NCBI RefSeq assembly: GCF_009914755.1
Contig: NC_060930.1
Length of the DNA: 64,000 nucleotides
Direction: 5' to 3' (one strand)
Source: the human T2T-CHM13v2.0 reference genome, Homo sapiens
Position numbers and translations under genes: made by a program. Shown here one piece after another: positions 27,929 through 30,789 of this stretch. The notes beneath the pieces are model-generated. The model did not search any database, was not told the origin of the DNA, and saw only the letters and a list, made by a program, of their open reading frames with translations. How positions within the stretch are numbered: the stretch's first letter is position 1; each line of letters opens with the position of its first letter.

Positions 27929-28482
27929 CGTGTGAACTATTTCTAAGGACGTTTTGGCAACTGAGTTTTAGAGATATTTCAAAAAAACTTTAGCATTAGT
28001 ATTTAAGGGATCTTTTAAAAGCTTTCATTTTACACTTTTGTTACCCCCCTCCCCAAGTACAAGCTTATGGCTGCTCATGTGAAGTTGGAGACAAGGCAAA
28101 GTACACTCTCAAATCACCTTCCCATGTAACTGTGCTTATTTTGGGGAACAGCTGTACACCTCTATTCTCAGCAGAGTCAGCTGAAGCTAATGGCTCTTTT
28201 GCTCTGAATCTTACCATCTTACCTTTTAAGTCCTTTCAGGACATCATTCACAATCGCATCACAACCATCTTCAGATCCGCTACTCTCCTTAAGCATATTC
28301 AATTTCCATCACTGTGAAAACCAAATGAAATTCTATTACTTAATATTGCCCCTGCTCATGACTATCATGGACACTATATCTTTTTCTTTTTTTTCATTGC
28401 CAACTTCAGGAATATTGCATAACTAACTGATTATCCATTCATTCATTCCTAGATTCAACCATTTATTAAGAATGTTAATTGG

Positions 28483-29323
28483 TGGGGCTGGGCGCGGTGG
28501 CTCACCCCTGTAATCCCAGCACTTTGGGAGGCCGAGGAGGGCGGATCACGAGGTCAGGAGATCGAGACCATGGTGAAACCCCGTCTCTAATAAAAATACA
28601 AAAAATTAGCTGGGTGCTGTGGCGGGTGCCTGTAATCCCAGCTAAGCGGGAGGCTGAGGCAGGAGAATGGCGTGAACCCGGAAAGCCGAGCTTGCAGTGA
28701 GCCGAGATCGTGCCACTGCACTCCAGCCTGGGCGACAGAGCGAGACTCTGTCTCAAAAAAAAAGGATTTTGTTTTTACAGCACCAAACTACATTTGGTCC
28801 TTCACTAAAACTCAGGTTAATAAGAAATGATGTGTTGCAAAAGATTCCTTGAATCCCATTTAATTGTGATCAAATTTCTTATTTTCATTTCTCTTTTTAA
28901 ATAATAATAGATTGTCTAGAAAAAGAAAATAGCTAAATGTAAATCCAGATGTAAGCAGTGTCTTAGATAGCAATGCTTTTATTCCTTTATTATAATATTG
29001 TCATTGAAAAAAATTCTAATATTTCTCATCTTTAAGTCCTACTGCTAGTTGTGGGTTAATTCCATGCCATATGTTGTTTTTCTTCAGTTTCATTAGTAAT
29101 CTGCTTTTTCATCTATGACACATCACTTCTGGCCCTTACTTTGTCCCAGAGAACTCTCTGCACCATTCTCTATGGTTTGTGCCACTAAGGTGACCCACTG
29201 GACAGAGTGCTGGGAGCAAAGAAAGACATGACTTATGGAAAATATGATCTGTGTCCTCATGTTCTCCAGTTTTAAATATACTTCATATAGAAAATAAAAA
29301 TAGTTTTTTGAAAAGAAAAAAAA
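28483..29323 (+). mobile_element. Composite retroposed insertion: AluYd + unique sequence + poly(A)
   Basis: Perfect 15-bp TSD aagaatgttaattgg at 28468-28482 and 29324-29338; AATAAA at 29293-29298; A-rich tail 29311-29323. Confidence 0.85.
28486..28763 (+). mobile_element. AluYd-lineage element
   Basis: AluY with the 12-bp left-arm deletion (GAGACCA^TGGTGAAACC) characteristic of Yd, plus GAACCCGGAA. No TSD directly after its A9 tail. Confidence 0.85.
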
Positions 29324-30789
29324 AAGAATGTTAATTGGACATCTGATACTGTGCTAGGGCAGTGGGGAAAACCTTTTGGCTGCTGCTGTCCCTGCCACCA
29401 AGACACACAGCACAGTGCTCAGCGTATAGTAAATGATTAATAAACAGGAGTTCTCCCACCTGCCCCCCACTTCCATTTTCTCTCCACATTCACCATTTTC
29501 CTTCCTTGTTTATTTAATATTATCAGCCATTTTTTCTTCGTGTAAATAGCACATATGCAAAATTTGGACAAGTAAAAAAATTCACCCTTGTAATCATACC
29601 GTCTTAATTACAACCCTTTTTTTTTTATCCTTCTTTACGGGAGTTGTTTTTAGTGCATATATATTTTCATGTTGCAGCTTTATATTAATGTCATGGTTGC
29701 TTATGCTAATGCATACTTGCTTTATCTTGTCCAAAAATCCAAACAACAGAGAAAAGTGTAAATAATTGAGTAAAAATGAAATGCAAGCCTTTTATCCTAA
29801 GATATCATCTCAACCTTTCAGTGATTGTGAATTTATTTATTTTCCCATGCATATATATGTAATTTCATATGGACTGAATATTGTTTAGTGTCCAAATATT
29901 TAAAAATTATGCCTGTAATATCTGAAGACACTGTAAATATAAAAATTTCAGGGAATAAAACCTATTTTGAGTTAAATCAAAGTTCCTCCCATGGAGTTGC
30001 CATCCAGTTTGATGTGGTCTTTTAAGTCGTTTTCAACAAAATTATAGCTAGAAGTAAATATTTAAATATATTAACAACATAATTGGGTTAGTACTAAATG
30101 TATTTTTCTGCAGCCCGCTTAATATAACAATGTGTTTTCAACATAGTACGATAGTAATGCATTTAGATTAACCTCATTGAATGTATTCATTTTAAAATTT
30201 TTAGCTAACTAATACATATAAATACATTTAAAAGCACTGACAACTATAAGGCTTGAAAATAAAAATAGCAGTTGTTGGTCTTACCCCTCTCTAACTTACT
30301 ACTCAGAAATTCTTTTGGACATTTTCTCTGACATGAAAATCTGTTTTGCAAAATAACGTGCATGCATTCTTATTTCTGGACTTTATTTTATATGTTGTTT
30401 ATTGGTTTCTTACAACAGAAGAATCTTTCCTAAGGAACTCTCTAACCCCCCTCATCTTTTTTCACCTGCCTGCCCTATTTCAATTACAATTTTTGTATTA
30501 AATCACTAGTCCCTGTTTACAGTATAACAACTAGATGCATATTGTTCATAGTTAAGTAATGCAGAGTACTACAATTACATTCCCTTTCTTATATTCTTCG
30601 GAGGTTAATAATTGTCTTAATTTGTGTTGTTTTCTTATATTCCCTGCGTATTTATTACTGATTTATCTTCAGATTCTTTGACAGCACTATAGCATCCTTA
30701 TTGATACGGTAAACTTTAATACTAAGATATTCACCTGTAAGCTTTCAAGATCTTCCTTTTCTCTGGGAGTCTAGGCCTTGAAATTTTTA

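What the first reader, a model, noticed from the sequence alone, without database searches (positions are those of the whole stretch)
28468..29338. AluYd fused to ~550 bp of unique polyadenylated sequence within one TSD: Alu-linked 3' transduction or Alu-mRNA chimera
Seen: most Alus in this window have tight TSDs, but this AluYd's upstream 15-mer aagaatgttaattgg reappears only ~560 bp after its A9 tail, following AATAAA (29293) and a second A-tail (29311-29323). The target is EN-like (TT|AAGA), three extra bases (TGG) precede the Alu, and the flanks rejoin into L2-like sequence. The passenger (28764-29310) starts with T4/T5 runs that should stop Pol III. Established: Alu RNAs are Pol III products, and long 3' transductions are typical of L1/SVA rather than Alu. 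Inference: either a Pol II polyadenylated RNA starting or truncated at the Alu 5' end was retroposed, or ORF2p switched template from an mRNA 3' end onto an Alu RNA.
Basis: partly seen in the sequence, partly recalled or inferred. Interest (0 to 1): 0.85.

Follow-up and report, generated by a model that had tools for sequence, protein, structure and literature searches.

The report
Retrocopy of an Alu-containing transcript end
This is an LINE-1-made copy of the last ~840 bases of a polyadenylated transcript from chromosome 1 that already had an Alu in it, so the Alu and the unique tail moved together as one RNA; it is an ordinary mechanism with an unusually neat 5' end.

Summary
An exact 15-base duplication (28468-28482 and 29324-29338) encloses an 841-base insert. 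The insert consists of TGG, a dimeric Alu with a 12-base deletion and an A9 tail, about 550 unique bases, AATAAA, and an A-rich tail.

The unique part has exactly one other copy in the genome, at C1:192635395-192635941. It is 1.3% diverged over its full length. At that locus the same Alu sits directly upstream and has its own 16-base target-site duplication.

The two Alus share a 43-mer that occurs nowhere else in the 3.1-Gb genome. The extra TGG matches the chr1 bases just before the Alu. Homology stops 15-18 bases after AATAAA, and there chr6 carries untemplated A's.

The template-switch chimera is therefore refuted. One contiguous, Pol II-type polyadenylated chr1 RNA was retroposed by LINE-1. 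Pol III is unlikely because 9 shared runs of four or more T lie inside the copied segment.

It remains open whether the RNA began at the Alu or the cDNA merely stopped there. A published scan of this assembly confirmed 0 Alu transductions among 118,489 AluY, but by design it excluded cases like this one. I rate interest as modest: this is a new member of a known kind.

The parts
28468..28482 (+). Upstream copy of the 15-base target-site duplication. It is preceded by TT, giving an L1-endonuclease-like TT|AAGA site.
   Evidence: (D4)
28483..28485 (+). TGG. These are not untemplated bases: they match the three bases directly before the Alu at the chr1 source (the last two bases of the source Alu's upstream duplication plus one G).
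   Evidence: both copies begin T-GGGG-C
28486..28763 (+). Dimeric Alu with a 12-base internal deletion (Yd-type) and an A9 tail at 28755-28763. It is a copy of the Alu at C1, not an independent insertion.
   Evidence: two 7SL matches. (94.3% identity to the C1 Alu against 75-86% to 9 other window Alus; 6 private shared substitution columns plus the deletion). (the 43-mer occurs only at these 2 places in the genome).
28764..28771 (+). GGATTTTG, a copy of part of the downstream target-site duplication of the source Alu on chr1. It shows that the Alu-passenger junction was inherited from genomic chr1 DNA.
   Evidence: D2: 16-base duplication at L002 1202-1217 and 1493-1508
28764..29313 (+). Unique 'passenger', colinear with C1:192635395-192635941. 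It differs at 7 of 542 aligned bases plus 4 indel events, and carries 9 runs of four or more T.
29293..29298 (+). AATAAA poly(A) signal, the only one in the passenger. It is conserved in the source, where a GT-rich stretch follows the cleavage region.
29314..29323 (+). A-rich tail that is not encoded at the source. Homology to chr1 ends 15-18 bases after AATAAA.
29324..29338 (+). Downstream copy of the 15-base target-site duplication.

Best explanation
An Alu of the 12-base-deletion (Yd) type first inserted on chromosome 1, about 38 kb downstream of the last CDC73 coding exon, and made its own 16-base duplication. Later a Pol II-type transcript running through that Alu on the + strand was cleaved and polyadenylated 15-18 bases after an AATAAA about 530 bases downstream of the Alu.

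LINE-1 ORF2p nicked chr6 at a TT|AAGA site and primed on the poly(A) tail. It reverse-transcribed the last ~830 bases of that RNA: the passenger, then the whole Alu, then 3 more bases. The copy was integrated with a 15-base duplication. The insert is therefore a partial retrocopy (an unspliced processed pseudogene) of an Alu-containing, probably non-coding transcript.

Shown: the source locus, colinearity across the Alu-passenger junction, the direction of copying, the untemplated A tail at a poly(A) site, and the duplication with its endonuclease site. Inferred: Pol II as the polymerase, LINE-1 as the machinery, and that the 5' end reflects cDNA truncation or an RNA end that lies next to the Alu by coincidence.
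For: - The passenger has exactly 2 places in the genome, itself and C1:192635395-192635941 (97% by BLAST, full length; 7 of 542 mismatches).
- At C1 a Yd-type Alu lies directly upstream, with its own 16-base duplication around the Alu alone.
- The chr6 and C1 Alus are 94.3% identical against 75-86% to 9 other window Alus. They share the 12-column deletion and 6 substitution columns seen in none of those 9.
- A 43-mer spanning three of those variants occurs 2 times in 3.1 Gb, at these two loci only.
- The chr6 copy keeps GGATTTTG after the A tail and TGG before the Alu, both of which are chr1 flank.
- Homology ends 15-18 bases after the single AATAAA. The source continues with a GT-rich stretch, while chr6 has A's.
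- All 9 runs of T>=4 in the chr6 passenger are also present in the source, so they predate copying.
- The 15-base duplication and the TT|AAGA site are present.
Against: - No transcript, start site or annotated gene could be shown for the source locus with these tools. There is no CpG island within 9.7 kb upstream, and the locus is not in the CDC73 3'UTR.
- No intron was removed in the copied span, so 'processed' rests on the poly(A) tail alone.
- A 5' end only 3 bases from the Alu start is a coincidence under this reading. I estimate it at a fraction of a percent per Alu-bearing retrocopy.
- The 5' junction has no microhomology. This is uninformative, because truncated mRNA retrocopies depend only weakly on microhomology (PMC2912911, sections 12 and 14 read).
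Confidence: 0.75

Rival explanations
1. True Alu-led 3' transduction. The retroposed RNA really began at, or 1-3 bases before, the source Alu, for example from a Pol II start next to the Alu. It carried a complete Alu at its 5' end and a poly(A) tail at its 3' end. The Alu helped it capture ORF2p, as free Alu RNA does.
For: - The copy starts 3 bases before the Alu and includes the Alu in full.
- There is no microhomology at the 5' junction, as seen for full-length insertions. This is weak evidence, since PMC2912911 sections 12 and 14 show it is also common for truncated mRNA retrocopies.
- The authors of the T2T-wide scan state that Pol II co-transcription transductions 'cannot be excluded' (10.1101/2024.04.29.591526, whole text read).
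Against: - There is only one offspring. The passenger has 2 genomic places and the Alu's private 43-mer has 2, so there is no sign that this unit was an efficient template.
- No promoter-like CpG island lies upstream.
- The first copied base is a T, which is not a typical start base (recalled).
- By my rough estimate, chance truncation near an embedded Alu is expected a handful of times per genome.
Confidence: 0.18
2. Pol III transcription from the source Alu's internal promoter read through into the flank, and the read-through RNA was retroposed. This is classical Alu 3' transduction.
For: The 5' end lies near the Alu start. The left monomer with its promoter region is present in both copies.
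Against: - T4 and T5 runs begin 3 bases after the A tail, and 9 runs of T>=4 shared by both copies lie inside the copied segment. Each is a Pol III stop signal; T>=4 is the criterion used in 10.1101/2024.04.29.591526.
- The 3' end lies 15-18 bases after AATAAA, not inside a T run.
- The copy includes 2-3 flank bases before the Alu.
Confidence: 0.04
3. Template-switch chimera. ORF2p started on an unrelated polyadenylated RNA and jumped onto a free Alu RNA.
For: There is an internal A9 tail between the two parts. Chimeric retrocopies of this general kind are described in the literature (seen in the search listing only).
Against: The Alu-passenger junction exists as contiguous genomic DNA at C1, including the source Alu's own duplication. 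The Alu carries private variants of the C1 Alu.
Confidence: 0.01
4. Two independent events (a retrocopy, then an Alu landing exactly at its 5' edge), or a DNA-level duplication from chr1.
For: None beyond the two-part appearance.
Against: - The same Alu occupies the same position relative to the passenger at both loci.
- One duplication encloses both parts, and none surrounds the chr6 Alu alone.
- The A tail at the poly(A) site is not templated on chr1, which argues for an RNA intermediate.
Confidence: 0.01

Closest known systems
LINE-1-mediated retrocopies (processed pseudogenes), including 5'-truncated copies of mRNA or lncRNA 3' ends
   Same: It has a 15-base target-site duplication, a TT|AAGA endonuclease-type site, an untemplated A tail at a canonical poly(A) site, and a single colinear source locus.
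   Different: The source is not a known coding mRNA. It lies ~38 kb beyond the last CDC73 coding exon. No intron loss is visible. The copy's 5' end falls 3 bases before an embedded Alu, so it mimics an Alu with a transduced tail.
3' transduction by L1 and SVA (read-through past the element's own poly(A) signal to a downstream one)
   Same: The element and its downstream flank are copied as one RNA, end at a downstream AATAAA, and sit inside one duplication. The source locus is identifiable from the flank.
   Different: L1 and SVA drive their own Pol II transcription, whereas an Alu normally does not. Here the copy includes bases upstream of the element, and there is no evidence that the Alu started the transcript.
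Alu-mediated transduction as searched for in T2T-CHM13 (Halabian et al., bioRxiv 10.1101/2024.04.29.591526; whole text read)
   Same: This is the same assembly. A full-length AluY-type element has its 3' duplication far downstream, and a source with an AluY immediately upstream exists. That is the signature their first pass screens for.
   Different: They confirmed 0 of 118,489. Of 633 first-pass candidates, 24 had sources, and all were judged to be degenerate A tails. Their validation requires that the first T>=4 run lies beyond the transduced segment. This locus fails that test (T4 three bases after the tail), so I infer it was excluded by design. Their Table 2 is held only as an image and the supplements are closed, so I could not see whether this locus was listed.
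Template-switch chimeric retrogenes (U6/L1 and similar)
   Same: Two-part appearance within one duplication.
   Different: The parts of those chimeras come from different loci. Here both parts and their junction come from one locus.

Membership tests
L1-mediated retrocopy (TPRT product) | Target-site duplication flanking the whole insert | tested here: met
   Exact 15-mer at 28468-28482 and 29324-29338, with no other exact copy in the window.
L1-mediated retrocopy (TPRT product) | Endonuclease-type target (TT|AAAA-like) at the first nick | tested here: met
   TT|AAGA at 28466-28471. The consensus is recalled.
L1-mediated retrocopy (TPRT product) | 3' A tail absent from the source, placed at a poly(A) cleavage site | tested here: met
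   Homology ends 15-18 bases after AATAAA. The source continues with a GT-rich stretch while chr6 has A's.
L1-mediated retrocopy (TPRT product) | Identifiable parent locus colinear with the copy | tested here: met
   C1:192635110-~192635945. There are 823 aligned bases with 23 mismatches.
L1-mediated retrocopy (TPRT product) | Loss of introns relative to the parent | not testable with these tools
   The copied span is colinear with genomic DNA. No annotation or RNA data for the parent locus were available.
Alu 3' transduction in the strict, Pol III-driven sense | Source locus with the same Alu immediately upstream of the transduced segment | tested here: met
Alu 3' transduction in the strict, Pol III-driven sense | No Pol III terminator (T>=4) between the Alu and the end of the transduced segment | tested here: not met
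   There are 9 T>=4 runs, all shared with the source. The first lies 3 bases after the A tail.
Alu 3' transduction in the strict, Pol III-driven sense | Copy begins at the Alu transcription start | tested here: inconclusive
   The copy begins 3 bases before the Alu's first base, and those bases match the source flank.
Template-switch chimeric retrogene | Parts derive from different loci, and the junction is absent from any genomic locus | tested here: not met
   The junction is present as contiguous DNA at C1.
AluYd subfamily | 12-base deletion in the left monomer of an AluY-type element | tested here: met
   The 12-column gap (alignment columns 90-101) is shared by the chr6 and C1 Alus and absent from 8 of 9 other window Alus. 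The ninth has its own overlapping 9-column gap. That this deletion defines Yd is recalled. PMC1266357 (passages) only lists AluYd3 and AluYd6 among hominid-specific subfamilies and cites Xing et al. 2003, which I did not read. No Alu consensus sequence was available to compare diagnostic positions.

The most novel reading that the evidence does not exclude
The retroposed RNA began at the source Alu. On that reading, this locus is a genuine Alu-led, Pol II-terminated 3' transduction. A systematic scan of the same assembly found 0 such events among 118,489 AluY and explicitly left this kind open. It would show that an Alu at the 5' end of a polyadenylated RNA can carry ~550 bases of unique flank to a new chromosome.
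Probability: 0.18. Interest if true: 0.6.

Novelty: new member of a known kind. Interest (0 to 1): 0.3.

Why it matters
The locus is a clean, fully traceable example of an Alu and ~550 bases of its downstream flank moving together between chromosomes inside one target-site duplication. A dedicated scan of T2T-CHM13 reported no confirmed Alu transduction, but it required that no Pol III terminator lie in the transduced segment. This locus shows that such structures do exist when the carrier RNA is a Pol II-type polyadenylated transcript.

This matters in two practical ways. Pipelines that call Alu insertions may mis-size events of this kind. It also prompts the question of whether retrocopy 5' ends are enriched at embedded Alus. 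Mechanistically nothing new is required: LINE-1 copying the 3' part of a cellular transcript explains everything seen.

Tried and rejected
- **CDC73 3'UTR as the source.** I suspected this from recalled map positions. The Pfam CDC73_C search places the last coding exon at C1:192596962-192597117, about 38 kb upstream of the source, so I rejected it.
- **L2 nature of the flanks.** Each flank (253 and 257 bases) matched only itself in the genome. The search is not sensitive to old repeats, so nothing can be concluded.
- **Bacterial-type promoter and terminator scan of the source.** This is irrelevant for a human locus and I gave it no weight.
- **CpG-island scan of 9.7 kb upstream of the source Alu.** No 500-base window reached GC >0.5 together with CpG o/e >0.6, so no start site was found.
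- **Microhomology at the 5' junction as a discriminator.** I dropped this after reading PMC2912911 sections 12 and 14.
- **Literature searches that led nowhere.** One search was swamped by unrelated '12-bp deletion' papers. One search found 0 papers.
- **PMC13174262 (passages).** It concerns chimeras with LINE-1, not an Alu plus unique flank.
- **SNORD83 match in the passenger.** It is weak (23.7 bits against a gathering score of 35, E 0.085), and I take it as chance.

Full report
**What is in the sequence**

The 15-mer AAGAATGTTAATTGG occurs at 28468-28482 and again at 29324-29338 (family D4). These are the only exact copies in the window. With up to 2 mismatches there are 3 matches, against 0.5 expected from shuffles.

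The 841 bases between the two copies read as follows:
- TGG at 28483-28485.
- An Alu at 28486-28754.
- An A9 run at 28755-28763.
- Unique, AT-rich sequence from 28764.
- A single AATAAA at 29293.
- An A-rich tail at 29314-29323 with one G in it.

The bases before the upstream 15-mer are TT, so the site reads TT|AAGA. Rfam gives two tandem sub-threshold matches to metazoan SRP RNA on the + strand (28487-28589 at 35 bits; 28609-28756 at 57 bits; gathering score 70). That is what a dimeric Alu looks like. NCBI's mask in the hub note covers 28481-28777 and leaves the passenger unmasked.

**Where the passenger comes from**

I searched the window's own genome (3.1 Gb, 24 contigs) with 28764-29310. 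The search found 2 places: the query itself and C1:192635395-192635941 on the + strand, full length, 97% by BLAST. The passenger is therefore not a known repeat, and no further copy with this tail exists.

Reading the C1 locus (L002) shows an Alu directly upstream of the passenger. That Alu is flanked by its own exact 16-base duplication, A8-GGATTTTG, at L002 1202-1217 and 1493-1508, preceded by TT.

**The chr6 unit is a copy of the chr1 unit**

In the pairwise alignment, similarity starts at the T three bases before the Alu and runs without a break through the Alu, the A tail, the GGATTTTG remnant and the passenger. It ends 15-18 bases after AATAAA. Upstream of the T, and downstream of that end point, the two loci are unrelated.

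- *Divergence.* The passenger differs at 7 of 542 aligned bases plus 4 indel events. The Alu differs at 16 of 272.
- *CpG decay.* The script flags 7 of the 16 Alu differences as CpG-context. The multiple alignment with other Alus shows that several more are sites where the two copies carry different decay products of one CpG. The excess divergence in the Alu is therefore CpG decay after copying.
- *Shared variants.* Against 9 other Alus from the window, the chr6 Alu is 75-86% identical, but it is 94.3% identical to the C1 Alu. The two share the 12-column deletion and 6 substitution columns that none of the 9 has.
- *Uniqueness.* A 43-base stretch spanning three of those variants occurs exactly twice in the whole genome, at these two loci. 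The reversed control pattern occurs 0 times.

**Direction of copying**

- On chr1 the duplication encloses the Alu alone, and the passenger continues into unrelated sequence with no A tail.
- On chr6 one duplication encloses everything, and the end carries A's that chr1 does not encode.
- The chr6 copy retains only the last 2 bases of the source Alu's upstream duplication (plus one G), but the full GGATTTTG downstream.

So chr1 is the parent. The order of events was: Alu into chr1, transcription across it, then retroposition to chr6.

**Which polymerase made the RNA**

The copied flank holds 9 runs of four or more T, starting 3 bases after the A tail. All 9 are present in the source as well, so they predate the event. 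Four T's is the Pol III stop criterion used by Halabian et al..

The 3' end is not in a T run. It lies 15-18 bases after the only AATAAA, and in the source a GT-rich stretch follows. That is the layout of a Pol II-coupled cleavage and polyadenylation site; the layout is recalled knowledge. I therefore take the template to have been a Pol II-type polyadenylated transcript. This is inferred, not shown, because no RNA data or annotation for the chr1 locus were available.

The locus is not in the CDC73 3'UTR. The last CDC73_C-encoding exon lies at C1:192596962-192597117, about 38 kb upstream on the same strand. No CpG island lies within 9.7 kb upstream of the source Alu.

**The 5' end**

The copy starts T-GGGG-C, identical to the source. 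Two readings remain:
- The cDNA stopped, or the RNA happened to end, 3 bases beyond an embedded Alu.
- The RNA truly began at the Alu.

The junction has no microhomology. Kojima (PMC2912911; abstract and sections 7, 12 and 14 read) reports that 5'-truncated mRNA retrocopies often lack microhomology, unlike truncated L1. This feature therefore does not discriminate.

There is one offspring only, so nothing suggests that the unit was an efficient template. My rough estimate uses recalled numbers. With roughly ten to twenty thousand retrocopies, about a tenth carrying a sense Alu near the 3' end, and a window of a few bases out of a few thousand, a handful of such coincidences per genome are expected. 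I put the Alu-led reading at about 0.18.

**Age**

Passenger divergence is 1.3% (K2P 0.013). That is about the genome-wide human-chimpanzee figure (recalled). With only 7 substitutions the uncertainty is roughly twofold either way. The insertion is millions of years old and probably fixed, but I cannot say on which ape branch it arose.

**Comparison with what is known**

The mechanism is that of an ordinary LINE-1-mediated retrocopy. Structurally, the result looks like the 3' transductions of L1 and SVA.

Halabian et al. (bioRxiv 10.1101/2024.04.29.591526; whole text read) scanned 118,489 full-length AluY in this same assembly. They found 633 first-pass candidates, traced sources for 24, and confirmed none. 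Their validation demands that the T>=4 terminator lie downstream of the transduced segment. They also state that transductions by Pol II co-transcription cannot be excluded.

This locus meets their first-pass signature but fails that terminator rule, so I infer it was filtered out by design. Their Table 2 is held only as an image and bioRxiv supplements are closed, so I could not check whether it was listed. Two searches for published Alu transduction cases returned only that preprint and one L1 paper for the phrase. This locus may still be described in papers outside the held library.

**Verdict**

The template-switch chimera is refuted, and retroposition of a polyadenylated Alu-containing RNA is supported. 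This is a new member of a known kind. The one open point of modest interest is whether the Alu defined the RNA's 5' end.

Noticed in passing
window 21875-27930 (- strand): A ~6-kb LINE-1 lies 540 bases upstream of the insertion. It has a 338-aa ORF (26011-27027) carrying all three L1 ORF1p domains. The ORF2 region is split into several frames: an endonuclease domain in 24782-25774 and a reverse transcriptase domain in 23331-24263. I found no link to the finding.
   Followed up: partly
window 28607-28658 (+) and 28675-28734 (-): There are sub-threshold Rfam matches to mir-1268 (36.7 bits against a gathering score of 83) and mir-3135 (34.3 against 80) inside the Alu. I read these as Alu-derived miRNA families matching Alu sequence (recalled), not as miRNA genes.
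   Followed up: no
L004 = G000:C6:81059228-81062461 (match at C6:81060728-81060961, +): There is a CDC73_C match on chromosome 6 with two in-frame stops (1 TGA, 1 TAA), 41.7 bits. It looks like a CDC73 processed pseudogene.
   Followed up: no
L002 1202-1217 and 1493-1508 (C1:192635096-192635111 and 192635387-192635402): The source Alu on chr1 has a perfect 16-base target-site duplication starting with A8 and preceded by TT, which is a textbook L1 endonuclease site. Its A tail is 13 bases, against 9 in the chr6 copy.
   Followed up: yes
window 28468-29338 relative to LOC100506207: According to the hub's gene table, the insert lies in an intron of the lncRNA LOC100506207 on the same strand (the nearest listed exons are at 35596-35742 and 36522-36850). 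Its AATAAA is therefore in sense orientation to that transcript. Whether it is used as a poly(A) site was not tested.
   Followed up: no
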